A DNA stretch of 64,000 bases, taken from NCBI GenBank assembly GCA_028713285.1, contig JAQTOP010000001.1:35190-99189 (forward strand), given 5' to 3'. Position numbers and translations under genes: made by a program. Positions within the stretch are counted from its first letter, which is position 1. Every line of letters starts with the position of its first letter. This DNA is from Terrimicrobiaceae bacterium. Its GTDB lineage: Bacteria > Verrucomicrobiota > Verrucomicrobiia > Chthoniobacterales > JAATET01. Under the pieces are notes generated by a model that was not told where the DNA came from, made no database searches, and saw only the letters and a program-made list of their open reading frames with translations. Shown here piece by piece: positions 2,822 to 16,128 of the stretch.

Positions 2822-2850
2822 GCAAAAGCCCAAGATAGATAACGACAAAA

Positions 2851-3708
2851 ATGACACCTGAAGAGCACACAGAAGCCTGGCGGAACAACATCAAATCCAA
2901 GGCCCAAGAGATTCAGGGACTTCTCAATGAAGTCATCGGGCTCCTTCCCATGGTGGCCGACGAAAAGCGGAAGTCAAAATTTGAAGAACGCCTCCAAACC
3001 GTCACGGCGAAGGCCAGGGCCATGCATGATCTTTATGGGCCAAATCTCGCCCCCCAAACCCTCCAAGAACTGACCCACTCACTCACCCAGTGGAAGTCGA
3101 ATTTGCAGGACCATAACGTCACCCGAAAAATCGCCGAACTCTGGCAGCCCATCGGCAAACTTAACGGGGAGGAAGAAATTAGTAATGAACTCTCCTTCTC
3201 CGCCATCCTCGAAAAGCACAACCGTGACGGCACCCTTCAGAAATGCTTGGAGGAACTCATTTCCTCACTGGAAAAACTCCTCGCAGCGGGCGATGACACC
3301 CTGACAAAGCAAGCCGCCACCGAACTCGAAAGAATCCTCGCTGAACTCAAAAAACGGAAAAACGAGTCCCTGTTTGACATTCAACCATGGATCGAATTCG
3401 CCCTCGTTTCAACCGGAGCCATCGTGGACCACTACACTGGAACCCCGATTGCCACAATCGCCGCCGCCGCTCTCGTTGCCGCCAAGGAATCCCAAATCCA
3501 AGTCAACAACCTCTTCACCCTCGCTTACCATGAATACGTCGAAAGCCTCAAAATGAAGGGACAAGCCAAATGGGAAGGAATCTTCGGGAAGAAACTTAAA
3601 GGAGCCAGTCTTGAAGACATCCAGAAGGCCATCCAATCGCCGGATGGTCTTAAAAGCCTCCCGGAGCCGGACACGTTGGCTTTGCCCCCAGCTTCCTCGG
3701 AACAATAA
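2851..3708 (+). CDS. Hypothetical helical protein with a hydrophobic segment
   Basis: 285-aa ORF starting 29 nt after the GHKL gene on the same strand. It is rich in coiled-coil-like sequence and has a hydrophobic stretch, 'PWIEFALVSTGAIVDHYTGTPIATIAAAALVAA'. No family recognised. Confidence 0.5.
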   Translation: MTPEEHTEAWRNNIKSKAQEIQGLLNEVIGLLPMVADEKRKSKFEERLQTVTAKARAMHDLYGPNLAPQTLQELTHSLTQWKSNLQDHNVTRKIAELWQPIGKLNGEEEISNELSFSAILEKHNRDGTLQKCLEELISSLEKLLAAGDDTLTKQAATELERILAELKKRKNESLFDIQPWIEFALVSTGAIVDHYTGTPIATIAAAALVAAKESQIQVNNLFTLAYHEYVESLKMKGQAKWEGIFGKKLKGASLEDIQKAIQSPDGLKSLPEPDTLALPPASSEQ

Positions 3709-3835
3709 ACATCAACGTGAAAAACATCAGCTTCCCGAAGTGCCGCAGGAAATCGATTCTCTCCCACCAAACCTGCAAGGATCCGCGCCAGCGGAGCTGT
3801 CACGGCACCTTGCTCTATAATTTGCAAATTTGTGC

Positions 3836-3886
3836 GGGGCGGCGGAACGGGGCCCACCAAAAAGGAGAGCCCCGTTCCACCGCCCC
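3836..3886 (+). other. GC-rich 18-bp-stem hairpin (possible terminator or structured RNA element)
   Basis: GGGGCGGCGGAACGGGGC - 15-nt loop - GCCCCGTTCCACCGCCCC, with one C/A mismatch. There is no U-tract. It lies 128 nt downstream of the stop of 2851-3708. Confidence 0.6.
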
Positions 3887-4071
3887 GTAGGCTTGGTTGA
3901 GAGGAGATTCAAGATCGATCAAGAGAGAGTGAGGGGGGAGCGGAGTGGTGCTCATCGCGTGTCTGGTTCGAGGTATTTACCGTCCCCGTCGGGGAATGGG
4001 CTGCACCTAGGACATCCTATCACGGCCGGGTGCCTTTCGGCACCACCCGCCAATAAAGCACATCACCCGGT

Positions 4072-4263
4072 GTGCAAAATACACCAACTCAATCCGAGGA
4101 TGTCATTGTCACCAAATATGCCACTCGGCATTGGGCCGTCTGGCTCTCTGGTGAGCTCGTCGCCGTGACCGTCTATCGAAAAGGAGCCCAGCGCGTTGCG
4201 GAACTCCTGCAGACCGTCCAGCCATCGAACTCGACCACCGTGGCAGAGCCCGCCCAGAGGTGA
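4072..4263 (+). CDS. Small conserved protein (63 aa), unknown function
   Basis: GTG-initiated ORF. The core 'DVIVTKYATRHWAVWLSGELVAVTVYRKGAQRVAELLQT' is shared with 5426-5650. Over this core I count 9 synonymous and 2 non-synonymous codon differences, which argues for real coding sequence. Confidence 0.65.
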   Translation: MQNTPTQSEDVIVTKYATRHWAVWLSGELVAVTVYRKGAQRVAELLQTVQPSNSTTVAEPAQR

Positions 4264-4337
4264 GAATAGCCATTGGCTAGCCACAGAAGTCGCGATAAAC
4301 TGATCCCTGAATACAACCTATGCTACCCAATACCAAT

Positions 4338-4841
4338 TCACCGTCGTTGGTGAATTGGGCCAACACTGGAACAAAAACTATAGCCGCAAGAAGCAAACCA
4401 ACCGAGGGCATCTTTGGGAGTGACCTGTGCAAGGGCATGAGCGATGGCGGAGGTCAGATCGGAAGGGGTGCGTGCTTCGGTGGAGCGGAGGAGGGATTTG
4501 ACTTTGCTCCACATTTTTTCGATCGGATTGAAGTCAGGAGAGTAGGCGGGCAAAAAGAGCACTTGGGCTCCGGATTGGGAGATGAGTGCCAGGGTGGGAT
4601 CGCTTTTATGGGGGCCGAGGTTATCCATGATAACGATGTCGTCGGGACGCAGGCTCGGGCAGAGGACTTCGGCGACGTAAGCGCGGAAGACTTCCGTGTC
4701 GGTCGCTCCGGCGATGGCCATGGCGGCGGTGGTGCCATCCAAACGGATGGAAGAGATCATGGTGGTGCTCTGCCAGCGACCGCAGGGAGTGCTGGCGTGG
4801 CAGCGTGTCCCGCGGGGGGAACGCCCGTAGAGACGGGTCAT
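4338..4841 (-). CDS. IS630-family transposase, DDE catalytic part (orfB)
   Basis: '...IVIMDNLGPHKS...VLFLPAYSPDFNPIEKMWSKVK' is the DDE_3 / IS630 catalytic C-terminus. Confidence 0.8.
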   Translation of the reverse strand: MTRLYGRSPRGTRCHASTPCGRWQSTTMISSIRLDGTTAAMAIAGATDTEVFRAYVAEVLCPSLRPDDIVIMDNLGPHKSDPTLALISQSGAQVLFLPAYSPDFNPIEKMWSKVKSLLRSTEARTPSDLTSAIAHALAQVTPKDALGWFASCGYSFCSSVGPIHQRR

Positions 4842-5305
4842 GTTCGTTTTCGCCCCGCTTTCGTCGAGGAAGACGAGCCGCGCTGGATCGAACCCGCCCT
4901 GTCGCCGCCTCCACGCACGGCGCGCCCGGGCGATGTCGGGGCGCTCTTGCTCGCTGGCTCGCAGCGTCTTTTTTTATATGTCAGCCCCATCTTGCCCAGC
5001 ACCACATGGATCGCCTGCAGCGAGCAGTCCAGTTCCAGGGCCGCTCGCATCTGCTTCAAGGTAAGATCCACCTTGCCGGCCAGCAGCGCGCGAAGCTGGC
5101 GCTGATGGCTGGCCACGATCATCGGCTTGCGTCCCGCCAAGTGATGTCTCGCTCCGATCTCGCCCGTGCGCCGTCTCTGCTGCAGGAGCTTTTTGACCAT
5201 CCCCAACGACACGCGAAATCGCTGCGCGATCTCCTCCCTCGTGCCTTCCCCTCCATCGTAGCTGCACAAGATTCGCTCTCGCAGATCAAGGGAGAGTGTT
5301 CGCAT
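4838..5305 (-). CDS. IS630-family transposase, N-terminal HTH part (orfA)
   Basis: 155-aa ORF 'MRTLSLDLRERILCSYDGGEGTREEIAQRFRVSLGMVKKLLQQRR...', typical of the IS630/Tc1 helix-turn-helix region. It overlaps orfB by 4 nt, so this is either a programmed frameshift or a disruption. Confidence 0.75.
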   Translation of the reverse strand: MRTLSLDLRERILCSYDGGEGTREEIAQRFRVSLGMVKKLLQQRRRTGEIGARHHLAGRKPMIVASHQRQLRALLAGKVDLTLKQMRAALELDCSLQAIHVVLGKMGLTYKKRRCEPASKSAPTSPGRAVRGGGDRAGSIQRGSSSSTKAGRKRT

Positions 5306-5425
5306 CCCCTTTCTCTATCTTTGCCTTCTCCAAATGGCTACATTATTTATTCCAGTGTTGGCCCAATTCACCACTGACGGTGGATTGGTATCGGAGGACA
5401 TAGGTTTTGGTCGGAGGTCAGTTTA

Positions 5426-5650
5426 TCACAGATTCGCTTGGAAGCCAATCGCGTTGGCTGGCTCCGGCGGGGTAATTGGGACGACCTGTGAAATGGTTGG
5501 CCGGAGGGTTTGCAGGAGTTCGGCTACGCGCTGGGCTCCTTTTCGATAGACGGTCACGGCGACGAGTTCGCCTTGGAGCCAGACGGCCCAATGGCGGGAG
5601 GCGTATTTGGTAACGATGACATCGCCATTCGGAGTTGGTGGATTTTGCAC
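5426..5650 (-). CDS. Small conserved protein (74 aa), paralog of 4072-4263
   Basis: It has the same GTG context (CCCGGTGTGCAAAAT) and the core 'DVIVTKYASRHWAVWLQGELVAVTVYRKGAQRVAELLQT'. The longer 144-aa ORF call is not conserved in the left copy. Confidence 0.65.
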   Translation of the reverse strand: MQNPPTPNGDVIVTKYASRHWAVWLQGELVAVTVYRKGAQRVAELLQTLRPTISQVVPITPPEPANAIGFQANL

Positions 5651-5870
5651 ACCGGGCGATGTGCTTGATTGGCGACTGGTGCCGAAAGGCACCGGGTCGT
5701 GATTGGGATTCCACCACGCGAGACCGGGTGGCAGCGCACGAGGTCGGCGCGGTTGATCCACGGGCTGCAGGAAGCGACCGGACACGCCCGCCGCTCCGAA
5801 AGACGAGAGGCGTTCCGGCCCCCTCACTCTCTTGATCGATCTTGAATCTTCTCCTCTCAAACAACCCTGC

Positions 5871-5921
5871 GGGGCGGTGGAACGGGGCTCTCCTTATTGG
5901 TGGGCCCCGTTCCGCCGCCCC
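5871..5921 (-). other. GC-rich 18-bp-stem hairpin, second copy
   Basis: Same arms and same internal mismatch as 3836-3886, with one loop difference. It lies 145 nt downstream of the stop of the minus-strand E2 gene. Confidence 0.6.
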
Positions 5922-6066
5922 GGTGATTCCTCTCCCGGATAACGCAGGCGGAGTGCCAGCTCCGCTGGAACGACAGCCTGCCAGATTGGTTGGGTGCGCA
6001 TGTTTGTATAACCTTCATGGTTCTGTGTTCGTCCGTAACGATAACCATGGTGGTTGGCTTGGTCGG

Positions 6067-6720
6067 TCATCGCTTCCCGGTGACGACTTCCCGAAGCCAT
6101 GCTTTTGGGAGAACATTACGAAACTTTCTGACTGCGACGTTGAAGTCGCATTTTCCGAGCCGCTTTTTGCAACCACAGGGACAGGGCATTTTGTTGGCGA
6201 GTCGCTTCTTTTTGAGCAGGCAGAGCAGGGCTGGGACGACCTGGTTATTACGTTTGAGGCCGAGCAGTTCTTTGTAGTCGTCGAGTTCGCCATCGATGCC
6301 GTGGCGCAGTTCTCCAAAGATGAAGTCTTGGCCGTGTGTGAGCTTTAGGCTCATCGCATAAAGGTAGGGAACGATGCAGGTTTTGCTAAATCCGTGGACG
6401 GTTGGTTCTGCCTGTAGCCGAGCCATGAGGCGAATTCGTGAGCCGAGGCACAAGGTTCCGTTGCCATTTACGTGAAAATCGTTCACGCGGGGAATTCTGC
6501 CCCCTATCTCGCTTACCGTGGGAACCCGACGGGGGAACTCTTGGGGGATGGAGATTTGAAGATTGTAAGTGTCGTTGATCTGGGGGTGTCCCTCATGTTC
6601 GGCGCAAAACTGAAAATCCCCTTCTAGTAGAAGGGAATTTCCGTTCGATGGTTGAATCGAGATGAAGGGCTGATCGTTGAGGAACTCATCCAGCCCCGGA
6701 ATGGCGATCGGAGCGGGCAT
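6067..6720 (-). CDS. Stand-alone E2/UBC-like protein with C-terminal SEC-C zinc motif (CBASS type II-short accessory)
   Basis: 'FHVNGNGTLCLGS' matches the E2 HxN...G.LCL catalytic-Cys motif. The C-terminal 'CPCGCKKRLGKC' is a SEC-C-type metal-binding motif. The ATG at 6720 overlaps the upstream stop (TAATG); an alternative GTG is at 6732. Confidence 0.7.
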   Translation of the reverse strand: MPAPIAIPGLDEFLNDQPFISIQPSNGNSLLLEGDFQFCAEHEGHPQINDTYNLQISIPQEFPRRVPTVSEIGGRIPRVNDFHVNGNGTLCLGSRIRLMARLQAEPTVHGFSKTCIVPYLYAMSLKLTHGQDFIFGELRHGIDGELDDYKELLGLKRNNQVVPALLCLLKKKRLANKMPCPCGCKKRLGKCDFNVAVRKFRNVLPKAWLREVVTGKR

Positions 6721-7907
6721 TACATACACCACGGACGCGCCGGTTTTTCGGTGATGATCTGGATGTTCTGGTAGTCTGCGGGTTTAGACGGCAGGAGCGG
6801 AAGAATTTTGGCGATTTCACCTTGTGGGATACGAAGCCCAAACTTCTGCAGAGTGAACTTCTGGATCAGCTCTTCGGAGTTGAGCTTTTCCGTGTTCTGG
6901 AAGTCTGCTCGGGCCTGCTTGAGCCAGCCGTGGAAGTTTCCTTCCAAGTTGAGGTGGGCGTATTTCGGCTCGTGCCATTTGTCCGCGAAGTCTTCATTTG
7001 GGTTCACCGGATTGGGGACGCGGGGAATCGTCGGAAGGATGTAGCGATCCATGTCGGCAAGGATGCGCTCCAGAGTCGTGGTGGTGTTGTCCTCACCCCG
7101 GTAGGCAGCAGCCGCCAGTGTCGTGAGGATGATGGAAATGGGTTTGGAGTCGGGGTTCTTGGCGAACATCGAATCCCGGTGCCGCTTCAAAAGTTGGATG
7201 GCCTTTTGAAGTGGCGTTTTCCATTTCCAAGCGGGGAGTTTTTCTACCTTGGCCTGCTTTGCCATCATGGCGACTTTTTCCATGAGCCCGGCGGCGATTT
7301 CCATGCGGGATTCAAACCACTTGGCGTAGCCTTCGGAGTTGGAGATTCGCCAGTTGGGGTCGATATAGCGGTAGTTGGCCTGGCGGTTGTCGGTAATGTT
7401 GCCCGAGTGACGAGATACGTCTTCGGCGAGCCCGCGAGCGAGGCCATGCTTGATCATCGCGTCGGCGAGCGAGGCCTGCTTGGTCATTTCCTCAGGGATG
7501 GAGGGAACGATGTCCTCCGAGAACCGGAGTTCGTCCGCATATTCGAGGCACCAGCAACGGTGTTTTTCTTCGAGTTCCTTTTTGATTTGTCGAGCCTGCC
7601 GGTAGGCTTCGAGTTCGTCACCGACGAGCGTCTTCAACTTTTCCTGGGTGTGCGTGTGCTTGCTGATGCCGGCCTCAAGGCGGCAGCCAACATCCAGATC
7701 ATAGGATTCGCCTTCGTGAAGCGGACGGTTGACGGTGCCAAGGCGGAAGGAGCCTTGCGCATAAATTCTCGGCCTGTGGGCTTTTAGCGACCCTTGGCAG
7801 AACCAATCGCCCAAGTCCTTGTAGCGGTCGTGGGCCTTGTCGTAGGCACCGGGTGGAATTTCCAAAGCGGCCACGAGGGCCTCGATGATCTGAGCTTTCG
7901 TCTTCAT
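6720..7907 (-). CDS. CD-NTase / SMODS nucleotidyltransferase (CBASS cyclase)
   Basis: 'AQGSFRLGTVNRP...GESYDLDVGCRL' supplies the GS...DxD Pol-beta NTase motifs, and 'FSEDIVPS' supplies the third acidic residue. 'PISIILTTLAAAAY' is typical of the SMODS core. Start set at 'MKTKAQII' (7907); the longer ORF to 8045 would overlap the patatin gene. Confidence 0.75.
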   Translation of the reverse strand: MKTKAQIIEALVAALEIPPGAYDKAHDRYKDLGDWFCQGSLKAHRPRIYAQGSFRLGTVNRPLHEGESYDLDVGCRLEAGISKHTHTQEKLKTLVGDELEAYRQARQIKKELEEKHRCWCLEYADELRFSEDIVPSIPEEMTKQASLADAMIKHGLARGLAEDVSRHSGNITDNRQANYRYIDPNWRISNSEGYAKWFESRMEIAAGLMEKVAMMAKQAKVEKLPAWKWKTPLQKAIQLLKRHRDSMFAKNPDSKPISIILTTLAAAAYRGEDNTTTTLERILADMDRYILPTIPRVPNPVNPNEDFADKWHEPKYAHLNLEGNFHGWLKQARADFQNTEKLNSEELIQKFTLQKFGLRIPQGEIAKILPLLPSKPADYQNIQIITEKPARPWCM

Positions 7908-7938
7908 GGTCGTTTGGTGTCTTTGTTGGTTGGGTTGG

Positions 7939-8883
7939 TTAGCTGAGTTTGTGACAGGGCTCGAAGCGGGCCGCTTGATGGTCGAAGAACCCTCGGTCAA
8001 AGAGTTCGGAAGAGGCGTGGCGCCATTCGGCCTCGCCCATCGCAAGGAGTTCTTTGCTGAGTTTATCGAGCTGAAAATCCCCCGGTGCGGTTTTGGGGTT
8101 CACCTCGAAAAAGCGGTCTTTTCCGAGCAGATGATGAACCATCCCGGAAGCCGACTGTGACTGGCCTCTCATCATGAAGTCGATGACCGGAGCCGCCATT
8201 TGCAATTTTCCTCCCATGGTCTGGAGATCCTTTAGGGAGATGACTTCCTCGGTCGTGCCGATGCGAAGCGCGGCGATTTCGCTCTGAGGTTTTTCGAGGT
8301 ATCCCAACGCCTCGGCCACCGCGATCATGATCGGATTGTTTGCCCAGACGCCACCGTCAAGGAGTTGCAGGCCTGACTCGGTGACTTCGGGAGGAAGGTA
8401 GGTCGGGGCGGCGCTGGTCGCCATCGCGACATGAACGGCGCTTTGCTTGTAATCGGTCTGGAGCCGCTTGTGGTGCGCCGTCTTGAAGATATGGACTCCG
8501 CGGAACGCGGGGTCGTAAGCAGGTATAAGGAGTCGTTTCTCGCTTTCGCCGAATTTGCGTTCGCCGAGCAGGTCGTTTAGTGCCGCCCGCAGGCCCTCAC
8601 CCGAATGTTTGACCGCCAGCCAGTGTTTGGCGTTCGCGAAGTGCTTGGGCGGGAAGATTTGGTGAGCCTTGTCGAGATAGAGATCCTTGATCTGTTCGGC
8701 CGAGAAGCCGAGGCCCAAGGCAATGGCGATGATACCGCCGGTGCTGGTGCCAGAGATCAGGTCGAAATGGTCGATGATCCTTGTCCCCCGTTCTTTTTCC
8801 CAATGCGCCAGAAACGAGGCGGTAAAAAGGCCTTTCAGTCCACCGCCATCAAGAGAGAGAATTTGGAATCGGTTAGATGTCAT
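7939..8883 (-). CDS. capV: Patatin-like phospholipase (CapV-type CBASS effector)
   Basis: 'LSLDGGGLKG' (oxyanion hole), 'GTSTGG' (GxSxG nucleophile) and 'LLDGGVWANNP' (catalytic Asp). Confidence 0.85.
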   Translation of the reverse strand: MTSNRFQILSLDGGGLKGLFTASFLAHWEKERGTRIIDHFDLISGTSTGGIIAIALGLGFSAEQIKDLYLDKAHQIFPPKHFANAKHWLAVKHSGEGLRAALNDLLGERKFGESEKRLLIPAYDPAFRGVHIFKTAHHKRLQTDYKQSAVHVAMATSAAPTYLPPEVTESGLQLLDGGVWANNPIMIAVAEALGYLEKPQSEIAALRIGTTEEVISLKDLQTMGGKLQMAAPVIDFMMRGQSQSASGMVHHLLGKDRFFEVNPKTAPGDFQLDKLSKELLAMGEAEWRHASSELFDRGFFDHQAARFEPCHKLS

Positions 8884-8916
8884 ACTTTGAAGATTGTTTC
8901 CGTCAGATTGTTGCAG

Positions 8917-9303
8917 TTAGGTGAAGAATTTAAGCCAGAGTCGGCGCAGAACGCCGACCTGCCGACGGCTTGACGGGGGTTCGTCTGACATTTCCTTCGA
9001 AGGACTCGATTGGGGGCCGTGGTCCCAACTTGGGGCTTCAACTACGCGTCCGCGTCGAATGAAGTAATGGGACCGACAGGGAAATTTCCAGTTGCCTATT
9101 GAGGGGGAGAGCGAAATGGTTTCCCCATCGAACGACATCGTCCAATCCTTAGGTGTAAATGGGGTTACGATCTCGTTTCCGCATCCACAGCAGCATCTGT
9201 GGGTGGCCGTAGCGAATTCCATTGAGATGTAAATTTTGGATGGTTCCAGGATCTCGGGGATGAATTCAACGAACTCGTGTGTGAGGCGGTGCGTCTTGAT
9301 CAT
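8917..9303 (-). CDS. DUF6527-like small zinc-binding protein
   Basis: 128 aa with 'HRCCCGCGNEIVTPF...FPCRSHYFIRRGRV'. ATGA overlap with the upstream E1 gene. This family is a recurrent partner of ThiF/multiubiquitin operons (recalled from annotation patterns, not searched). Confidence 0.55.
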   Translation of the reverse strand: MIKTHRLTHEFVEFIPEILEPSKIYISMEFATATHRCCCGCGNEIVTPFTPKDWTMSFDGETISLSPSIGNWKFPCRSHYFIRRGRVVEAPSWDHGPQSSPSKEMSDEPPSSRRQVGVLRRLWLKFFT

Positions 9304-10481
9304 TGTGCCCCTTTGTTATCGATGTGGTTTCCGTCTGTGGTGTAAAGGCAGTGGATTTCGTTCTCTAGGTCGCGGTAGAATCCCCTCAGTTTTTTCCACT
9401 TAATGACCGCCAGCGCTGCATTGAGGGCGTTGAGTTCCGCGATCTGGATGTTTGAGGCGTAGATGTTTTCTTCTCCCTTTGCTGACGACAGGTATCTGTG
9501 GACGTGCGTTCTCTCCTCCGGGGTGCTTATGGTTGTCCGAAGCATGCCGCCGAGTGATCCGTCAGTCAGTTCTAGGCCCATGCCCACATCGATGAATGAG
9601 ACCCCGAGCGCTTCGAGTTTCTCGACGATGAGTTTTTTTGCGTCACCTCCATCCATACTGAGGAATGCGAACGTGATCCCGTCAAGCAGGTGCAGGTTGT
9701 TCACGTGCAATGGCTCGGTATGGGGTTTGATCCCCTTCCTCATCTTTGAGTAAATCGAAGTGAGGTAGTCGACCTTAGTTGGAACTTGCTCCAACTCTTC
9801 AAGCGAGGGTGCCCCCGGTGCACGGAAAGCGTTGTGCTGAAGGAACTCGTCTCCGTCGAAAAGACGGATCTCCTTGGCAGGTGTTTTAGCGACGAAATCG
9901 AGGATGTATGATCCCGTTCCTCCCGTTCCGATGATTGCAATCACTTCGTTCTCAAGTAACGAAGTGAGCGCACCGATGCCGGCGCGGCCGGACGCAGTTT
10001 CCGTGTAGAGGAAGGGTCCCGCGTCAACTGTCAGTTGACGCTGCCCCGTTCTCGCGTTGGCGCCAGGATAAAGGCTTTGAGCGGGGCTGGCGATGTAGCT
10101 CAGGTAGGTCGTCATCTTGTGATAATAGTCGTCGTAGCCCGCCTTTGGTTTGCACGAGAGTTTGCAATCCACCTCTATGCCGTGACCCAAATTCTCCTTC
10201 TCCCCGACCTTGTTGAACTTCGCCAGTGGCTGTCCTTCTCGGTCGCTTGGGAACTCCCCTGGTGACTCACTTTTGAAATACAAGGTGTGGTCTTCGGGTT
10301 TCCGGGTTTTTTCCCCTGCCAACTCGAGCGGGGAAACGAGCGCTCCTCGCCTCAGTTCCCGCTTCGTGTTCAAGTATGGGACATCCTTGAGAATGAGGAA
10401 CCCGCTTCGGATTTCCACGTTGTAACCGTCTTCGGACAGTTTGAGGAGATCTGGGCTACGACTTGTCAGTGAGTGTGACAT
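9300..10481 (-). CDS. ThiF-family E1-like adenylyltransferase with an N-terminal extension of about 170 aa of unknown function
   Basis: 'VIAIIGTGGTGSYILDFVAK...IRLFDGDEFLQHNAFRAPG' is the Rossmann GxGxxG plus E1 adenylation motifs. Start set at 'MSHSLTS' (10481). The upstream 120 codons of the ORF call overlap the Mub gene and are low-complexity. Confidence 0.75.
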   Translation of the reverse strand: MSHSLTSRSPDLLKLSEDGYNVEIRSGFLILKDVPYLNTKRELRRGALVSPLELAGEKTRKPEDHTLYFKSESPGEFPSDREGQPLAKFNKVGEKENLGHGIEVDCKLSCKPKAGYDDYYHKMTTYLSYIASPAQSLYPGANARTGQRQLTVDAGPFLYTETASGRAGIGALTSLLENEVIAIIGTGGTGSYILDFVAKTPAKEIRLFDGDEFLQHNAFRAPGAPSLEELEQVPTKVDYLTSIYSKMRKGIKPHTEPLHVNNLHLLDGITFAFLSMDGGDAKKLIVEKLEALGVSFIDVGMGLELTDGSLGGMLRTTISTPEERTHVHRYLSSAKGEENIYASNIQIAELNALNAALAVIKWKKLRGFYRDLENEIHCLYTTDGNHIDNKGAQ

Positions 10482-11169
10482 TGAAAATTGTTCCCTTCTT
10501 TTTGACTGTAACCGATTGGTTTTTACCGAGTTCACCCGAGTGGGGTGCGGATGCTGCTTTGCGGTATGTGACCGCGAAATCAATCTGTGGTCCTCCTTGG
10601 CCGGGAAACGCGAGTTCGGTGACTTGCTCGTAGGTGACGACTTCGTCTTCGACGATGCGGGGGCGACCGTTGACGAAGATTTCGTAGCCGGGTTTGGGTT
10701 TCGCAGCGACGATGAACCTTTCGATTCCGGGTTCGGTGAGCGGGATGACATCGCTCTCCTCCACCAAACGGTCCTCACCGCCAGGAACCTCCAAGAAAAC
10801 GGCTTCGTCTTCCTTGAGGTTCGCAAGTTTGCCGAGCTCACGGCCAGTGATTGCAGGTTTCCCCCATTCGAGTTGATTCCCCTTCAGAGTGAGCTTGAAG
10901 TCACGGTCCGTCTGGAAGGCGACGAATTGCTCGGCTCCCTTCCCTCGGAGATCGAAGGTTTCGTCCAGTCGAACGTCTTCAAAATCTCCCGACGGCAGGA
11001 TGGCAAAAACGCTCCAGTCTTCTTCAGGGTTCACCCCGGCGCAGGCGAGGATTTGACGCCCCGTCGGCACGGGGTCGTCAATGGCGCAGGGTTGAAACTC
11101 GATCCCTCCAATACCAATTTTGAGTTGATATTGGCGTTTGGTTGTTTGGTTGGAATTGGTTGTATTCAT
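10456..11169 (-). CDS. Multi-ubiquitin (three tandem beta-grasp-like repeats) protein
   Basis: Three internally similar segments of about 70 aa (e.g. 'PVPTGRQILACAGVNP', 'PAITGRELGKLANL', 'VVTYEQVTELAF') resemble the prokaryotic Multiubiquitin family. Start set at 'MNTTNSN' (11169). The C-terminus is '...NVTLTDKS', with no Gly-Gly. Confidence 0.6.
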   Translation of the reverse strand: MNTTNSNQTTKRQYQLKIGIGGIEFQPCAIDDPVPTGRQILACAGVNPEEDWSVFAILPSGDFEDVRLDETFDLRGKGAEQFVAFQTDRDFKLTLKGNQLEWGKPAITGRELGKLANLKEDEAVFLEVPGGEDRLVEESDVIPLTEPGIERFIVAAKPKPGYEIFVNGRPRIVEDEVVTYEQVTELAFPGQGGPQIDFAVTYRKAASAPHSGELGKNQSVTVKKKGTIFNVTLTDKS

Positions 11170-11249
11170 CAGTGTCGACCTTTCTGTTACCGGCGGGTGA
11201 TTTCCGCCTTTACAGATGAATCGACCCGACTTCGGGCAACCGGTAATTC

Positions 11250-14200
11250 TTAGCCCACTTTTTTTGAAATTTTTCCAAGAGGCACCTCCCCGCACACGAA
11301 CAGCGCGGGGCAGTTTGGGCAGGTGCGGGATGATCTATCTGCAGGAAACTGACCGGTCGTGATGGCAGTAAGGATTTTCTGAATGAGTTCCGCCCGGTTC
11401 CCGAGTTTTTTACCGCCCATCGAGGGCTCCCAAGTCTTTTGGTCCGCGAGGTAAGCGACTTCGAGTGATGCACCAGGGAACTGTCTGGTTCCCATCAGGA
11501 TGAAGGCTACCGTCGCCAAATCATCCTCATGGGCCTTTCGATAATGTCCGGATCTGATTCGCCGGATCACCTGATTTCCTGCCTGGTCCGTGAGAGTTTC
11601 GTCGAATGCCACGTTCACGTTGTGTCCACCGATCTCGATTTCAGCAGCGCCTCCTGGCGCGGCTTTTCGGCCATTTCGACTTGAGCGGAGAAACCCCAAC
11701 ATTTGTCCGGCGAGTGTTTGGTAGTCGTCGACGTAGCCGTGCTCGGATAGGCCGGTGGTTTTGAGAGCACTTTGCACCTTTTCGACGAGTTGCTCATCAG
11801 TGATTTCATCGTTGCCGGCCAGTTGGTCACATACTTGTCGCACGGCGTCGTGCATCATCATGAGGCCAGTTTGCTGCCTTTTGCCGCCCGTCCTCAGGAT
11901 GTGGGTGTAGAGGAACCTTCGGGGACACTTGTCATAGAGGGCCAACTCGGAGTCGCGGAAGGTATTGTCGGCCTCAAGCTCAGTCGGGATCGAAGTCTCC
12001 TCCGGCGCGGCGGGGATCTCACGGGTTGGTGCTACTTCGGTCCGGCGCACGTGATTCTGGAGCCGCTCCAAGAATGGAGTCGTCGGGCGGTTGTGGCCGT
12101 TGGATTTTGTCTTGGCAGCATAGAAGCAGAGACGCTCCTTGGCACGAGAGAGGGCGACATAGAAAAGGCACTCTTGCTCTTGATCGTGGGCTTTTTGCAG
12201 GTGTTCTTCTGAGCCTTCATGAGTGCCTTCGATCATTCCGTCCGGGATCGGACACGGCGGGCGCCTCCATGAAGTGGGGAGCGTATCCTTGCTCATTCCC
12301 GGCAGGTGGATGACATCGAACTCAAGTCCTTTTGCCCCATGGATTGTCATGAGCCTGACGGCATCCAGCCCGCTGGCCGCATCGGGCATCTGGCGTAGGT
12401 CTCGATCGTCTCCGAGCAGGATCAATCTTCGCACTCGATTGAGAAGGCGAACAATGGGCAAGCCTTGCGCGGCTGGCTGGCCCTTGAGAAAGTTCATGAA
12501 TTGCCAGATCGCTACTCCCTGTGCTCTGACGGCAACGTCGTTCGATAGGGCGATGTCTGCGGCTTGTCGGGTCCGGTCGAGCAGGAAGACGCTGAGAACG
12601 CGCCAAGGTTGAGACTCGGACGTGAATCCGGCCAATGCCTCGGCAAGGTGGTTGAGGGTATTGATACCTTCCCTGCTGATATGAGGGATTTTTTCGGGAT
12701 CATTGAGCCACGTTCTGGGAGGATCTTGTGTGTCTCTGAGATGATTTAAGATGGAGACCACATCCTCCATTCGCATCATGAACTCGGGCCAAGTAGCTAC
12801 TCGGAGGAGGCCTGCTGCCCGGCGGTCGGTCAAGATGGACAGCAGACTGAGCAAGTCCTTTATCTCCCGGCGTTCGAAGAGACTTCCGAGGAAGAGGACC
12901 GGAATCTTGAGAGATTCGAGTTCGGCGGCCATAGCCGCCAGTCGTTCGTTGCCACCGCACAGCACGGCTTGGTTGCGATAGGGAAAGCCCTGTTCGCGCA
13001 ACTTCTCGATGTTGTCTGCGAGGGCGACGGAGAGTTGATTTCCTCGTTCGACACATTGGAGTTCGGGAGCGATGCCTGAGTTTTCTCGGGTCGGAACGAG
13101 CCGAGTTTCTTCACGGAGCCCTCGCATCTGGGTTGCGAATGTGGAGAAGGTGTCGACGATTTCGACCGAGGAGCGGTAGTTCTTGATGAGCCGACCCCTC
13201 TGACCGCCCGAGAAATCTTGGTTTCCGAACTGGGTGACGTTGAACGAGGAGGCACCGCGAAATCTGTAAATCGATTGTTTGGGATCCCCGACTACCCAGA
13301 GGTTTTTCCCATCTGGCTTGAGGGCGGCGAGGAGCCGAACGCTGCTGCGATTGACGTCTTGGTATTCGTCAACAAGGATGTGATCGTAAAGTTGCTGGAG
13401 GCGGTTTCGGACCTCTTCATTTTGCTCCAGCAGGAGCGCAGGGAGTAGAACCAAATCTCCGAAATCCACGCATTTCTGAGCACGTTTAACTTCCTCGTAT
13501 CTTCGGTAAACTCGCGCGATTTCCTCGACCCTCTGGGCGTTTTGGAGGGATTCCTCGTCAGTAGCGGCTGCAAGCATCGCCTGTGCGAGTTGCTGGTAAC
13601 GGTCGGCGTTAACGACCTCGTCTTTCGCACGTGAAATTGCCCCGAGAATCTCTACAATGCGGGGTGTGGAGTCGTAGATGTCCCGGAAGTGAATGAGGTT
13701 CAGCCGATGAAATTCCTCTTCCAAGAGTTCCACCGCTTCAGTGCGATCCAGTAGTCGAGGATTTTTCGGTAAGTCCAGTTGGTCATTGAAACGCCGAATG
13801 AGATCGAGGCCGAACGCATGGAAGGTTCCTATCGACATGGCGGCCGCTGCTTGGGGATGCCTTTGCGCAAGTCGGTGTGCCATCTCTCCCGCAGCCTTGT
13901 TGGAGAAGGTCAGTAAAAGAATTCTCGCCGGGTCGACGCCATCGGAGAGAAGGGATTCGACCCTCGTGATCAGGGTTTGCGTCTTTCCAGTTCCGGGACC
14001 AGCTTCGAGCAGGTACGCCAGCCCCCAGTGGTTGGAGGCTTCTTGCTGTTCTGGATTGGGTGTTCTATCCCGGGGAGTTTCGTTTGCTGGCTCGACCTCT
14101 GGCAAGAGCAGGGCGTCGAGGAGTTGCTGAGCGACGATTTCGAGGTTGGCACCGAGTTTACTCGCGATGGCGGTGACTGTGAGGCCTTGATCGAGGTGCA

Positions 14201-14645
14201 ATTGCCTTACGAGTTTTCGCGGTAGCAAGAACTCCCTGGCGAATAAGTCCATTTGGACCTCCAGCCTTTGCCTGTGGCTGTAGTCGATAACTCGGTCCGT
14301 GCCGACCGGAGATGATTCTGCCGATCTGGTAGGATCGACCTCGAAGATCTGGCCGTCATCCGTCGAGTCACCCAGCTCGGCGTGTCCGATCTCGTGGGCG
14401 ATCAGAAATGCCTTTTCGAAATCAGTGCCCTTGTCTTCATGCAGAATCAGTTGATCTCGATCGCTGTAAGTCGCTCGGGCACCATTCAACTGGGCGGCCC
14501 CCACCGCCACTGTCTCGACGTCAATCTCCCGGCGTTTTGCTTCAGCCATGGCAAACCCGTAGGGTCGCCAAGGACTCTCTCCTCTTTGAACTGCTTCTGT
14601 ATGCAGGCGAGCGGCAATTTGGCGGGCGGCTTCGACTGCATCCAT
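11250..14645 (-). CDS. ImmA/IrrE-type metallopeptidase domain fused to UvrD-like SF1 helicase and a C-terminal Cas4/AddB-like PD-(D/E)xK nuclease
   Basis: N-terminus: 'AFLIAHEIGHAELGD' (HExxH). Helicase motifs: 'AGPGTGKTQT', 'ILVDEYQDVN', 'VVGDPKQSIYRFRGA', 'NYRS', 'TIHGAKGLEFDVIHL' and 'LFYVALSRAKERL'. C-terminus: 'YDKCPRRFLY...CPNCPALFVCGE' (four Cys, as in Fe-S nuclease domains). Confidence 0.8.
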   Translation of the reverse strand: MDAVEAARQIAARLHTEAVQRGESPWRPYGFAMAEAKRREIDVETVAVGAAQLNGARATYSDRDQLILHEDKGTDFEKAFLIAHEIGHAELGDSTDDGQIFEVDPTRSAESSPVGTDRVIDYSHRQRLEVQMDLFAREFLLPRKLVRQLHLDQGLTVTAIASKLGANLEIVAQQLLDALLLPEVEPANETPRDRTPNPEQQEASNHWGLAYLLEAGPGTGKTQTLITRVESLLSDGVDPARILLLTFSNKAAGEMAHRLAQRHPQAAAAMSIGTFHAFGLDLIRRFNDQLDLPKNPRLLDRTEAVELLEEEFHRLNLIHFRDIYDSTPRIVEILGAISRAKDEVVNADRYQQLAQAMLAAATDEESLQNAQRVEEIARVYRRYEEVKRAQKCVDFGDLVLLPALLLEQNEEVRNRLQQLYDHILVDEYQDVNRSSVRLLAALKPDGKNLWVVGDPKQSIYRFRGASSFNVTQFGNQDFSGGQRGRLIKNYRSSVEIVDTFSTFATQMRGLREETRLVPTRENSGIAPELQCVERGNQLSVALADNIEKLREQGFPYRNQAVLCGGNERLAAMAAELESLKIPVLFLGSLFERREIKDLLSLLSILTDRRAAGLLRVATWPEFMMRMEDVVSILNHLRDTQDPPRTWLNDPEKIPHISREGINTLNHLAEALAGFTSESQPWRVLSVFLLDRTRQAADIALSNDVAVRAQGVAIWQFMNFLKGQPAAQGLPIVRLLNRVRRLILLGDDRDLRQMPDAASGLDAVRLMTIHGAKGLEFDVIHLPGMSKDTLPTSWRRPPCPIPDGMIEGTHEGSEEHLQKAHDQEQECLFYVALSRAKERLCFYAAKTKSNGHNRPTTPFLERLQNHVRRTEVAPTREIPAAPEETSIPTELEADNTFRDSELALYDKCPRRFLYTHILRTGGKRQQTGLMMMHDAVRQVCDQLAGNDEITDEQLVEKVQSALKTTGLSEHGYVDDYQTLAGQMLGFLRSSRNGRKAAPGGAAEIEIGGHNVNVAFDETLTDQAGNQVIRRIRSGHYRKAHEDDLATVAFILMGTRQFPGASLEVAYLADQKTWEPSMGGKKLGNRAELIQKILTAITTGQFPADRSSRTCPNCPALFVCGEVPLGKISKKVG

Positions 14646-14650
14646 ATCAG

Positions 14651-15232
14651 CTAGTCCTCCTTGAGGAGTTTCTCCCTCAGCTCAACGGGGGTGTTCGTCT
14701 GAATGAGCAGCTGCTCAAATGTCACTTGGCTTTGAAGGCTCGGCTTTTCGGTCGCCTTGTAGCTGTGGGCCGACTGCATCTCTGGAGGAGTTGCCAAGAA
14801 ATTAGATAGTTCTTCCAGGCTGCTATCGATCTGGTTGGCCATTCTCCGCAAGAAGGCGCGTGGGATGGATGCCTCCAGAACAATTCTGTCGCGGATCGCC
14901 GCTAGAACTGCTCTTGAGATATTGAGCGCGCGCGCAGCTTCCCTTTGTTGGGCGATGGTCAAGGATACGAAGGGATCGCTGGTCTTGCTCGCTATTCCAG
15001 TTCGGTAGTGTTGCCAGGCCCTTTCTAGGATTGCGTGGTCTTGAGGTTGCAGTTCGGGCGCACTCGCTGAATCGTCTTCAGTGAGGAGCTTTCTGGAGAG
15101 CTCGATAAGATCTCCTGCCATGTGTGGATACTGATCGAGGTATTGATTTAGCGTGTCCTTGCCAGGGTTTGGCTCCATTGAAAAATGGAGTAGGACGTCA
15201 ATATCTTGGTCGCGGTCCGGATGCTGGTTCAT
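14651..15232 (-). CDS. Putative HTH/ImmR-like partner protein
   Basis: 193 aa, ending 5 nt upstream of the ImmA-helicase gene. 'LTIAQQREAARALNISRAVLAAIRDR' looks like a helix-turn-helix. The family was not recognised. Confidence 0.45.
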   Translation of the reverse strand: MNQHPDRDQDIDVLLHFSMEPNPGKDTLNQYLDQYPHMAGDLIELSRKLLTEDDSASAPELQPQDHAILERAWQHYRTGIASKTSDPFVSLTIAQQREAARALNISRAVLAAIRDRIVLEASIPRAFLRRMANQIDSSLEELSNFLATPPEMQSAHSYKATEKPSLQSQVTFEQLLIQTNTPVELREKLLKED

Positions 15233-15238
15233 GGCTGT

Positions 15239-16042
15239 CTACTCCTCGCGAAGAAGATCGCGCAAGGTGCTGAACGCCTTGTCGCGTTGGTTGCGGATGG
15301 TTTTCTCGACTCTTCCGAGAGTTGTTGAGATTGATCTCTCGTTGGGGTCTTTGGACTCGATCGGGTAGCCGAGTCGTAGGAGGTGGATGATGTTTTTTTG
15401 CATGGGCTCCAATTGGTTAATCGCTTGGTCCAGACGTTTCCGGTAATTTGGATCATCCAGTTTGTTTGGATCGGTAGGGTCGAAGCTGCCCGCGCTTCGT
15501 TCTGCCTTTGATGAGATTTCGCCCGATTCGGAGTCGATTTCCAACGGCGCCCTAGTGTCCTTCTCGCGTTGATATTTTCGTTCGCCGTCCGTCTCCAGTG
15601 CCTTTATGGCGACTCCGAAGCGGACCTCGAAGAAGTCCAAACGAGCGGATGGTTTTTCTCGATCCTTGAGCAGGAGGTTGACGAGCCTGTCAATGACGTA
15701 GGCCCGAACTGTGTCTTCTCTGGCCGAAAGGGGGGATTCCGGGTCTCTCATGCAACCGATCTGTTTGAGCACCCGCTCCATTAGAACCTTCCAAAGGCTT
15801 TCATGGCAGCGGTGATTGTGAGGAATTTTGTTGCCACGCAACAGGTGAACAATGACTTCGCTGGGGATGTAACTGTGATGCTCGGGGTCTGCGATGCCGC
15901 AATCCTCGCCAATGCGCTCGACTGATGACGTAAGGCTCTCCGAGATTTTCTTCTCTATTGCGGGGGGGCGGAGATAGAGGTTTTTGTCGCCCTTGCGTTT
16001 GGTAAGAGGATGAACTTCCGCATCAGTCGCTTTCATGTTCAA
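15239..16042 (-). CDS. Divergent sigma-70-like / region-4 HTH protein
   Basis: The C-terminal 'LEPMQKNIIHLLRLGYPIE...SISTTLGRVEKTIRNQRDKAFSTLRDLL' resembles sigma-70 region 4. It stops 6 nt before the next gene. Confidence 0.45.
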   Translation of the reverse strand: MNMKATDAEVHPLTKRKGDKNLYLRPPAIEKKISESLTSSVERIGEDCGIADPEHHSYIPSEVIVHLLRGNKIPHNHRCHESLWKVLMERVLKQIGCMRDPESPLSAREDTVRAYVIDRLVNLLLKDREKPSARLDFFEVRFGVAIKALETDGERKYQREKDTRAPLEIDSESGEISSKAERSAGSFDPTDPNKLDDPNYRKRLDQAINQLEPMQKNIIHLLRLGYPIESKDPNERSISTTLGRVEKTIRNQRDKAFSTLRDLLREE

Positions 16043-16128
16043 AGTTCAATTTTTGAAGGTGCCGAGCGTGACATTTTTCATGGAGAGAGGTTGCAGAGAA
16101 TGACGGTTTGTTTCCTGTCGTACGGCGA

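What the first reader, a model, noticed from the sequence alone, without database searches (positions are those of the whole stretch)
8917..11169. Ubiquitination-like module lacks any recognisable deconjugating peptidase, and its triple beta-grasp protein has no Gly-Gly terminus
Seen in sequence: the Mub protein has three repeats of about 70 aa and ends in '...NVTLTDKS'. No JAB/MPN or other protease ORF occurs between 6067 and 11250. The E1 carries an unassigned N-terminal region of about 170 aa ('DLLKLSEDGYNVEIRSGFLILKDVPYLNTK...'). Established knowledge: Bil and CBASS type II systems use JAB peptidases and Gly-terminal substrates. Some recently described bacterial pathways were reported to use non-canonical chemistry and serine proteases (recalled, not verified here). 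Inference: conjugation here may be non-canonical. Alternatively the Mub may act as a scaffold or filament rather than a modifier, or the E1 N-terminal region or DUF6527 may be the E2-like or processing component.
Basis: partly seen in the sequence, partly recalled or inferred. Interest (0 to 1): 0.55.

Follow-up and report, generated by a model that had tools for sequence, protein, structure and literature searches.

The report
Type II Bub ubiquitin-like conjugation operon

Summary
The three minus-strand genes at 8917-11169 are a Type II Bub operon (formerly "6E.2/DUF6527"; Ye, Gong, Chambers & Corbett 2024). bubA is a triple beta-grasp Ubl, bubBD an E2-E1 fusion, and bubE a DUF6527 protein. 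The sequence observations hold, but they are family rules, not anomalies.

- **No Gly-Gly end:** BubA ends ...TDKS, like the crystallised E. coli ZDHYS365 BubA. Of 42 relatives, 41 end in Ser directly before the stop codon.
- **"Unassigned" E1 N-terminus:** it is Pfam DUF6791, the E2 (BubB) domain. It keeps Ser109, Lys111, Arg220 and Tyr341, the residues behind the published oxyester mechanism. The family has no conserved cysteine.
- **"Missing" peptidase:** DUF6527 is BubE, a Ser/His peptidase with a C4 zinc site. Ser68, His79 and Cys37/39/41/76 are all present. JAB is normally absent from Type II.
- **CBASS genes at 6067-8883:** a separate E2-only CBASS, adjacent in 2 of 46 operons.
- **Filament idea:** the Ca2+ ligands reported for Ubl filaments are also conserved.

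The side observation worth keeping is a three-gene cassette upstream: a sigma-like protein, a 193-aa protein, and an M78-UvrD-nuclease fusion. It accompanies Bub operons in 14 surveyed loci plus 7 of 7 contexts looked up. The Bub papers I could search do not mention it.

The parts
10456..11169 (-). bubA: 237-aa ubiquitin-like protein with three beta-grasp (Multi_ubiq) domains. The C-terminal residue is Ser237 (codon 10459-10461), directly followed by the stop. Ca2+-ligand equivalents are D88, D133 and E150.
   Evidence: Pfam PF14452, 3 stretches, 2.7e-56. Best PDB match is 9CD2, E. coli ZDHYS365 BubA, 1e-29, with the same ...TDKS end. 41 of 42 relatives end in Ser. Ca2+ ligands are conserved in 17-19 of 19 sequences.
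9993..10481 (-). bubBD, N-terminal E2-like (BubB) domain, residues 1-163 (DUF6791). The predicted catalytic residue is Ser109 (10155-10157), with Lys111, His65 and Lys122 nearby in sequence. The start codon lies 26 nt inside bubA.
   Evidence: PF20590, 1.7e-44. S109 and K111 align with S106 and K108 of the mutated E. coli protein. S109, H65 and K122 are invariant in 121 close and 46 diverse relatives. The AF2 model has pLDDT 79. Foldseek gave only weak E2 hits.
9300..9992 (-). bubBD, C-terminal E1 adenylation (BubD) domain with Arg220 (9822-9824) and crossover-loop Tyr341 (9459-9461). No conserved cysteine.
   Evidence: ThiF PF00899. NCBIfam PRK06153, full length, 1e-165. The best PDB profile match is the Citrobacter BubCD E1. 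R220 and Y341 are invariant.
8917..9303 (-). bubE: 128-aa DUF6527 Ser/His peptidase. The C4 zinc site is C37/C39/C41/C76. The dyad is S68 (9100-9102) and H79 (9067-9069). There is a disordered linker and a C-terminal amphipathic helix (RRQVGVLRRLWLKFFT). Overlaps bubBD by 4 nt.
   Evidence: PF20137, 7.7e-26. The motif aligns to Citrobacter C57/C59/C61/S92/C99/H102. These residues are at least 95% conserved in 46 sequences. The AF2 model shows 8 strands plus a terminal helix. No PDB fold match.
11250..14645 (-). Upstream partner gene (association inferred): 1131-aa fusion of an M78/IrrE peptidase (HEIGH, residues 84-88), a UvrD-type SF1 helicase, and a PD-(D/E)XK nuclease with a C-terminal Cys cluster.
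   Evidence: Pfam. Motifs are conserved in 119 relatives. It sits next to a Bub operon in 12 full and 2 partial genome loci and in 7 of 7 contexts looked up.
14651..15232 (-). Upstream partner gene (association inferred): 193-aa protein of unknown family, always found between the sigma-like gene and the fusion gene.
   Evidence: Conserved position in 13 loci. No Pfam or PDB match.
15239..16042 (-). Upstream partner gene (association inferred): 267-aa protein with a sigma-70 region-4-like C-terminus.
   Evidence: Sigma70_r4_2 or r4 hits in 11 and 9 of 13 family members. Weak PDB profile hits to FliA and other sigma factors.

Best explanation

Inferred from homology to the tested E. coli ZDHYS365 and Citrobacter proteins:
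- BubA is translated in its mature form, ending in Ser237.
- The E1 half of a BubBD dimer adenylates that carboxylate, with Arg220 in the ATP site.
- BubA passes to Tyr341 on the crossover loop as an oxyester, then to Ser109 of the N-terminal E2 domain as a second oxyester, and finally to lysines of targets that remain unknown.
- BubE, a zinc-stabilised beta-sandwich with a Ser68/His79 dyad and an amphipathic tail, removes BubA from targets and so restrains the pathway.
- BubA's first two beta-grasp domains probably also mediate Ca2+-dependent dimer or filament assembly.

No JAB peptidase is needed, because there is no pro-peptide to remove.

Shown here: gene identities, gene order, intact catalytic residues, and family-wide conservation of the Ser terminus. 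Inferred: every chemical step and the biological role.

The upstream sigma-like / 193-aa / M78-UvrD-nuclease cassette most likely senses DNA damage or foreign DNA and controls the operon. This would resemble the CapH+CapP pairs found upstream of other Bub operons. It is a hypothesis.
For: - **Domain content and order** match the published Type II definition of BubA, BubBD (E2-E1) and BubE without JAB.
- **BubA:** the best solved-structure match is E. coli ZDHYS365 BubA (9CD2, 1e-29), with an identical ...TDKS terminus. That protein forms ATP-, R219-, Y342- and S106-dependent conjugates with its BubBD in vitro.
- **BubBD:** window S109, K111, R220 and Y341 correspond to those residues. They are invariant or nearly so in 121 close and 46 diverse relatives, and no cysteine is conserved throughout.
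- **BubE:** it keeps all six published functional residues. Its AF2 model reproduces the published 8-strand fold with a terminal hydrophobic helix and no PDB homologue.
- **Conserved trio:** all 44 genome loci with a BubBD relative keep the trio where the contig allows. The bubBD ATG is embedded exactly 26 nt before the end of bubA in 42 of 42.
- **No JAB nearby:** JAB is not among the families seen in two or more of 133 neighbouring ORFs.
- **E1 half:** the best PDB profile match is the Citrobacter BubCD E1.
Against: - Nothing was assayed here. Identity to the tested E. coli proteins is only 33-44%.
- The ZDHYS365 BubBD sequence was available only as error-prone OCR text. The Tyr341 = Y342 match therefore rests on position and invariance, not on an exact alignment.
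- BubE peptidase activity was shown only for a Type I protein and was very weak in vitro.
- No Bub operon has yet been shown to protect against phage.
Confidence: 0.9

Rival explanations
1. Bub and the adjacent CBASS genes form one integrated system. For example, the Cys-containing E2 at 6067-6720 serves BubA, or BubBD supplies the missing E1 for CD-NTase conjugation.
For: All nine genes are co-directional and tightly packed: 33 nt separate bubE from capV, and the other junctions are overlaps or short gaps. No terminator is predicted between them. The same arrangement occurs in the 96%-identical relative L002.
Against: CBASS follows bubE only in the window and L002, out of the window plus 45 loci. 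L007 has an unrelated CD-NTase 1.1 kb away. BubBD carries its own E2 domain. E2-only CBASS is self-sufficient in Serratia, where the E2 itself processes and ligates cGAS. PADLOC and NCBIfam recognise the three genes as a standard cyclase, phospholipase and E2 set.
Confidence: 0.05
2. BubA acts mainly as a Ca2+-responsive scaffold or filament rather than as a covalent modifier.
For: Triple beta-grasp Ubls from Bub and Bil operons form Ca2+-dependent dimers and helical filaments. The ligand equivalents D88, D133 and E150 are conserved here.
Against: The homologous E. coli BubA is conjugated by BubBD. The strictly conserved free C-terminal Ser, the intact E1 and E2 catalytic residues and the dedicated peptidase make little sense for a pure scaffold. 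The two roles are compatible rather than exclusive.
Confidence: 0.12
3. The M78/IrrE domain of the upstream fusion protein is the real BubA-processing or deconjugating peptidase, and DUF6527 has another role.
For: An intact HExxH motif is conserved. M78 domains, fused or free-standing, lie upstream of about 29 of 44 surveyed Type II loci.
Against: BubA needs no processing, because the ORF ends at the conserved Ser. In related contexts M78/IrrE/CapP peptidases cleave HTH repressors (and established knowledge of IrrE-DdrO and ImmA-ImmR). BubE S92A and H102A mutants restore conjugates in cells. Many Type II loci have no M78 gene nearby.
Confidence: 0.05
4. The module is a ThiF/MoeB/MccB-type biosynthetic adenylation system (sulfur carrier or peptide modification), not a protein conjugation system.
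For: The non-Gly C-terminus recalls the MccB substrate MccA. Weak profile matches to TcdA and MccB have E of 0.002-0.008.
Against: The best match is the Bub E1. The system has a fused E2-like domain with an invariant Ser and a dedicated peptidase. In vitro BubA-BubA conjugates were seen for the homologue. No sulfurtransferase or biosynthetic genes are nearby.
Confidence: 0.03

Closest known systems
Type II Bub operon (6E.2), prototype E. coli ZDHYS365 BubA/BubBD/BubE (Ye et al., bioRxiv 10.1101/2024.11.21.623953; PDB 9CD2)
   Same: Same three genes in the same order. Same domain content: Multi_ubiq x3, DUF6791-ThiF, DUF6527. Same ...TDKS terminus. The same catalytic Ser, Lys, Arg and Tyr in BubBD, and the same Zn and Ser/His residues in BubE. 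No JAB.
   Different: Only 33-44% identical, and from a Verrucomicrobia-like host (96% to 'Verrucomicrobia bacterium 61-8'). The window BubBD lacks the Cys79 found in 93% of diverse relatives and has Cys at 106 and 110 flanking Ser109. It also carries the upstream sigma-like / 193-aa / M78-UvrD-nuclease cassette. I could not check whether the ZDHYS365 locus has that cassette.
Type I Bub operon (6E.1), prototype Citrobacter sp. RHBSTW-00271 BubAB/BubCD/BubE (PDB 9EA4-9EAV)
   Same: Same BubE family and same E1 clade (best PDB profile hit). Same triple beta-grasp Ubl family and the same oxyester logic. The same upstream cassette can accompany it (L046, L049).
   Different: Type I fuses the Ubl to the E2 and a JAB peptidase to the E1. 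Its Ubl is released by cleavage after a conserved Gly. The window has a free Ubl ending in Ser, an E2-E1 fusion, and no JAB.
Bil (bacterial ISG15-like) operons
   Same: Ubl, E1, E2 and a peptidase encoded together in defence islands. Some Bil Ubls are Multi_ubiq triple beta-grasp proteins (8U38).
   Different: Bil uses Cys thioesters, a JAB deubiquitinase, separate E1 and E2 proteins, and Gly termini. None of these applies here.
Type II CBASS Cap2 (E2-E1 fusion) with Cap3 (JAB)
   Same: The E2-E1 fusion architecture. Cap2 was the top, non-significant, structural hit for the DUF6791 domain.
   Different: Cap2 has catalytic cysteines and conjugates the CD-NTase itself, not a Ubl. Cap3 is a JAB peptidase. 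PADLOC E1-E2 models hit BubBD only weakly, 2e-6 or worse.
Operon type 6e of Iyer, Burroughs & Aravind 2006 (PMC1779556)
   Same: The original bioinformatic description: polyUbl, an E1 with 'domain X' in place of JAB, and a metal-binding protein 'Y'.
   Different: In 2006 domain X was unassigned and protein Y was thought to recognise targets. Neither the oxyester chemistry nor the protease activity was known.

Membership tests
Type II Bub operon | Free-standing Ubl (BubA) with 1-3 beta-grasp domains | tested here: met
   PF14452, 3 stretches, 2.7e-56. 9CD2 match at 1e-29 over residues 28-237.
Type II Bub operon | E2-E1 fusion protein BubBD (DUF6791 plus ThiF adenylation domain) | tested here: met
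   PF20590 at 1.7e-44 plus PF00899. Full-length NCBIfam PRK06153 at 1e-165. 41.5% identity to the OCR copy of ZDHYS365 BubBD.
Type II Bub operon | Conserved E2 serine (S106 in E. coli) with a nearby Lys, instead of a catalytic Cys | tested here: met
   S109 and K111 align with S106 and K108. S109 is present in 121/121 and 46/46 sequences; K111 in 120/121 and 44/46.
Type II Bub operon | Invariant crossover-loop tyrosine (Y342) and adenylation arginine (R219) in the E1 domain | tested here: met
   R220 and Y341 are invariant in 121 and 46 sequences. Y341 is the only Tyr at least 99% conserved between D298 and the following helix. The exact alignment to Y342 is blurred by OCR errors.
Type II Bub operon | No conserved catalytic cysteine in the E1 or E2 domains | tested here: met
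   The window's Cys106, Cys110 and Cys378 are not conserved. The most conserved Cys column in relatives (position 79, 93%) is Ser in the window.
Type II Bub operon | BubE (DUF6527) with a C4 zinc site and a Ser/His dyad | tested here: met
   PF20137 at 7.7e-26. C37/C39/C41/C76, S68 and H79 are at least 95% conserved and align to Citrobacter C57/C59/C61/C99, S92 and H102.
Type II Bub operon | No JAB/JAMM peptidase in the operon | tested here: met
   No JAB family in any window gene. None among families seen in two or more of 133 neighbouring ORFs from 42 loci.
Type II Bub operon | The DUF6791 domain adopts an E2/UBC-like fold | tested here: inconclusive
Type II Bub operon | ATP-dependent BubA conjugation through Tyr and Ser oxyester intermediates; BubE cleaves conjugates | not testable with these tools
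   Known only from experiments on the E. coli and Citrobacter homologues.
Type I Bub operon | Ubl-E2 fusion (BubAB) cleaved after a conserved Gly, and a JAB-E1 fusion (BubCD) | tested here: not met
   BubA is free-standing and ends in Ser. No Prok-E2_E or Prok-JAB domains. Compare the Type I loci L046 and L049.
Bil operon | Separate Cys-dependent E1 and E2, a JAB deubiquitinase, and a Gly-terminal Ubl | tested here: not met
   No JAB, no conserved Cys, a Ser terminus, and a fused E2-E1.
Type II CBASS (Cap2/Cap3) | A Cys-dependent E2-E1 fusion acting on a CD-NTase, plus a JAB Cap3 | tested here: not met
   BubBD hits PADLOC E1-E2 models only at 2e-6 or worse, over about 65 residues. There is no Cap3. 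The neighbouring CBASS is the E2-only type.

The most novel reading that the evidence does not exclude
The functional unit may be six genes, not three. A sigma-70-region-4-like protein, a 193-aa protein of unknown fold, and an M78 peptidase-UvrD helicase-PD-(D/E)XK nuclease fusion form a cassette. It is found next to Bub operons of both types across Proteobacteria, Planctomycetes, Myxococcota and Verrucomicrobia. It could be a dedicated DNA-damage or foreign-DNA sensor that licenses Bub expression through protease-triggered release of a sigma factor. It could also be the nuclease effector or the conjugation target of the pathway. Separately, the invariant C-terminal Ser of Type II BubA and the fixed 26-nt bubA/bubBD overlap are family rules that the preprint's main text does not comment on.
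Probability: 0.4. Interest if true: 0.55.

Novelty: already known. Interest (0 to 1): 0.2.

Why it matters
For the finding as given, the value is a correct label: this is a textbook Type II Bub operon, and none of its apparent anomalies is an anomaly. Bub pathways are of interest in themselves. They are the only ubiquitin-like cascades known to run on oxyester intermediates, and their targets and biological role remain unknown. First, the Type II Ubl always ends in a free Ser rather than Gly. Second, a large clade of Bub operons is always accompanied by a sigma-like / 193-aa / M78-UvrD-nuclease cassette. That cassette points to a DNA-linked trigger or effector that can be tested directly.

Tried and rejected
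- **The true ZDHYS365 BubBD sequence** could not be obtained. The E. coli genomes reachable by DNA similarity carry a different Type II operon (STEC383). tblastn against plasmids found only relatives at 47% identity or less. I used the OCR copy from the supplement, which has visible errors.
- **The promoter/terminator scan** of 5800-16800 gave counts no different from shuffled sequence, so it says nothing about transcription units.
- **The 193-aa protein** got no Pfam assignment, even by voting over 12 family members, and no PDB profile hit.
- **PADLOC 2.0** has no models for BubA or BubE.
- **Literature searches** for DUF6791, multiubiquitin, helicase or UvrD in the Bub context found no description of the upstream cassette.
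- **Rejected idea, Cys110 as the catalytic residue:** an alignment to E. coli STEC383 numbering briefly suggested that the catalytic Ser might correspond to window Cys110. The ZDHYS365 sequence (FS106NK108P) showed the catalytic Ser is window S109.
- **Rejected idea, one combined Bub-CBASS system:** comparative genomics argues against it.
Full report
**What is in the sequence.** Nine co-directional minus-strand genes fill 6067-16042 with short gaps or overlaps.
- 15239-16042: 267 aa
- 14651-15232: 193 aa
- 11250-14645: 1131 aa, an M78/IrrE peptidase, UvrD helicase and PD-(D/E)XK nuclease fusion
- 10456-11169: 237 aa, three Multi_ubiq repeats
- 9300-10481: 393 aa, DUF6791 plus ThiF
- 8917-9303: 128 aa, DUF6527
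- 7939-8883: patatin phospholipase
- 6720-7907: CD-NTase
- 6067-6720: E2

The Pfam assignments for the three genes of the finding are strong: 2.7e-56, 1.7e-44 and 7.7e-26. The Ubl has three repeats and ends ...NVTLTDKS. No JAB gene lies between 6067 and 11250. The E1 has about 160 extra N-terminal residues.

**Identification.** A full-text search for DUF6527 led to two preprints from the Corbett laboratory. They rename the "6E/DUF6527" operons of Iyer et al. 2006 as Bub. Type II Bub is defined there as BubA (a Ubl with 1-3 beta-grasp domains), BubBD (an E2-E1 fusion) and BubE (DUF6527), typically without a JAB peptidase. The window matches this definition gene for gene. In that work, E. coli ZDHYS365 BubA formed conjugates with BubBD in vitro. 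The reaction needed ATP, R219 (adenylation), Y342 (E1 crossover loop) and S106 (E2 domain), which argues for oxyester rather than thioester intermediates. Citrobacter BubE cleaved a BubA-GFP fusion and removed conjugates in cells, dependent on S92 and H102. It has a C4 zinc site.

**Tests of membership.**
- **BubA.** Its best solved-structure match is 9CD2, ZDHYS365 BubA (1e-29). That protein ends ...YVTQTDKS, the same terminus as the window.
- **BubBD.** Using the sequences in the preprint's supplement (OCR with some errors), window S109 and K111 align with S106 and K108. In 121 close relatives and 46 diverse ones from genome loci, H65, S109, K122, R220 and Y341 are invariant, and K111 nearly so. 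None of the window's three cysteines is conserved. The one cysteine column common in relatives (position 79, 93%) is Ser in the window.
- **BubE.** It has C37/C39/C41/C76, S68 and H79, all at least 95% conserved in 46 sequences. These correspond to Citrobacter C57/C59/C61/C99, S92 and H102.
- **E1 half.** A BubBD profile finds the Citrobacter BubCD E1 as its best PDB match, ahead of UBA5, TcdA and MccB.
- **Current annotation.** Pfam now labels PF20137 "BubE". RefSeq names one E. coli copy "ubiquitination-like system serine protease family protein".

- **BubE.** The AF2 model (pLDDT 77) has eight strands, a disordered linker at 97-114, and a C-terminal helix. It has no PDB fold match (best E = 0.8), as the authors also reported.

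**The Ser terminus is a family rule.** I fetched 44 genome loci encoding BubBD relatives at 39-96% identity, from many phyla. All keep the bubA-bubBD-bubE trio where the contig allows. Of 42 complete BubA ORFs, 41 end in Ser and one in Ala, within the motif G[TM]xFNVTxT[DNVI][KQR]S followed by the stop. None ends in Gly, and none has a C-terminal extension. The Ubl is therefore made in its mature form, which explains why Type II can do without the JAB peptidase that Type I uses to cut BubAB after Gly229. The preprint's main text does not comment on the Ser terminus. In all 42 loci the bubBD ATG sits exactly 26 nt before the end of bubA. It is formed by the last two bases of the N/D/H codon and the first base of the V/A codon in the last beta-strand. 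The final eight bubA codons are thus dual-coding, and translation of the two genes is presumably coupled.

**Filament alternative.** The companion preprint shows that triple beta-grasp Ubls form Ca2+-dependent dimers and helical filaments. The ligands are D73 and E136 in E. coli and D131 in M. brachiatum. The window equivalents D88, E150 and D133 are present, and conserved in 17-19 of 19 triple-domain BubA proteins. Self-assembly is therefore likely here too, alongside conjugation rather than instead of it.

**Neighbours.**
- **CBASS.** The three genes downstream of bubE are a standard E2-only CBASS: PADLOC cyclase 9e-115, phospholipase 2e-99, E2 7.5e-81, and NCBIfam CBASS lipase. They follow bubE only in the window and its 96%-identical relative L002. 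L007 has an unrelated CD-NTase nearby. E2-only CBASS works on its own in Serratia. I therefore treat it as a separate defence-island neighbour.
- **Upstream cassette.** The 267-aa, 193-aa and fusion genes precede bubA in 12 complete loci. Two more are partial: L001, truncated by IS1, and L006, cut at a contig end. L020 has the two small genes without the fusion. The cassette appears only where BubA has three beta-grasp domains, and in none of the 26 loci with shorter BubA.
- **The fusion family.** It is large and well conserved, with the top 120 hits at least 54% identical. HExxH, Walker A, the helicase motifs and a C-terminal Cys cluster are all intact. In 7 of 7 contexts looked up, a gene of about 220-285 aa and one of about 173-201 aa precede the fusion, and the set lies next to a Bub operon. 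Five were Type II and two Type I. In L046 (Cupriavidus) the Bub operon is divergently oriented from the cassette.
- **The two small proteins.** The 267-aa family hits sigma-70 region 4 in 11 of 13 members (weak PDB support). The 193-aa family has no assignable fold.
- **Other loci.** Many Type II loci lacking the cassette have free-standing M78 and HTH genes (16 and 11 of 133 neighbouring ORFs). These are the CapP/CapH regulators the authors describe.
- **Interpretation.** I found no mention of a helicase or nuclease partner in the preprint, its supplement, or the later CapK/CapS paper. The simplest reading is a CapH/CapP-like, DNA-responsive control module in which the protease is fused to a helicase-nuclease. 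An effector or target role is not excluded.

**Verdict.** The finding is real sequence, correctly described and already explained. It is a Type II Bub operon, and every apparent anomaly is a defining feature of that family. Novelty is nil for the module itself. A modest residue of interest lies in the invariant Ser terminus, the fixed 26-nt gene overlap, and above all the conserved upstream cassette.

Noticed in passing
window 11250-16042 (-); also L002-L004, L007-L010, L012-L014, L032, L044, L046-L052: A conserved three-gene cassette lies next to Bub operons of both types: a sigma-70-region-4-like protein of about 270 aa, a protein of about 190 aa with no known fold, and an M78 peptidase-UvrD helicase-PD-(D/E)XK nuclease fusion of about 1133 aa. 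Among Type II loci it occurs only with triple beta-grasp BubA. The Bub papers I could search do not mention it.
   Followed up: yes
window 10456-10481; all 42 loci with a complete bubA: The bubBD start codon is always embedded exactly 26 nt before the end of bubA, within the N/D/H-V/A codons of BubA's last strand. The last eight bubA codons are therefore dual-coding and the tail length is fixed (42 of 42).
   Followed up: yes
window 6067-8883 (-): An E2-only ('type II short') CBASS: patatin effector, CD-NTase and a Cys-containing E2 (motif HVNGNGTLCLG) with a C-terminal CxCxC/SEC-C-like motif. The CD-NTase ends ...EKPARPWCM, with no Gly in its last ~30 residues. The studied Serratia E2-CBASS instead uses a near-terminal Gly (G406). 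The CD-NTase stop and the E2 start overlap as TAATG.
   Followed up: partly
window 3835-5922: An IS630-like element lies just beyond the CBASS E2 gene and probably marks the edge of the defence island. It has a DDE_3 transposase at 4338-4841 and an upstream ORF at 4838-5305. It is flanked by about 550 nt of inverted repeat (3835-4385 against 5336-5922, 76-95% complementary).
   Followed up: partly
window 10143-10166 and 10245-10247 (BubBD residues 106-113 and 79): The window BubBD has Cys at 106 and 110, on either side of catalytic Ser109; most relatives have His106 and Ser/Asn110. It has Ser at position 79, where 93% of diverse relatives have Cys. The significance is unknown.
   Followed up: partly
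L001 (E. coli STEC383, NZ_CP091026.1) 2147-7161: This is a second E. coli Type II Bub variant, whose BubA ends ...RTIQS. It sits beside an integrase and tRNA-Leu. Its upstream helicase-nuclease gene is cut by an IS1 insertion, leaving only the C-terminal 587 aa, annotated as '3'-5' exonuclease'.
   Followed up: partly
L013 9974-11611 and L024 14885-15770: In Methylobacterium phyllosphaerae (L013), BubBD and BubE lie in one stop-free ORF of 546 aa. This is either a natural fusion or an assembly error. In L024 the bubE gene is displaced by about 4 kb and appears frameshifted.
   Followed up: no
plasmid collection: BubBD relatives occur on 128 plasmids (Acinetobacter 45, Rhizobium 15, Ralstonia 13), and 97 of these are mobilizable or conjugative. 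Chromosomal copies sit next to integrases, AbiE, Tn7-like genes and restriction genes. Both patterns fit a mobile defence or stress module.
   Followed up: partly
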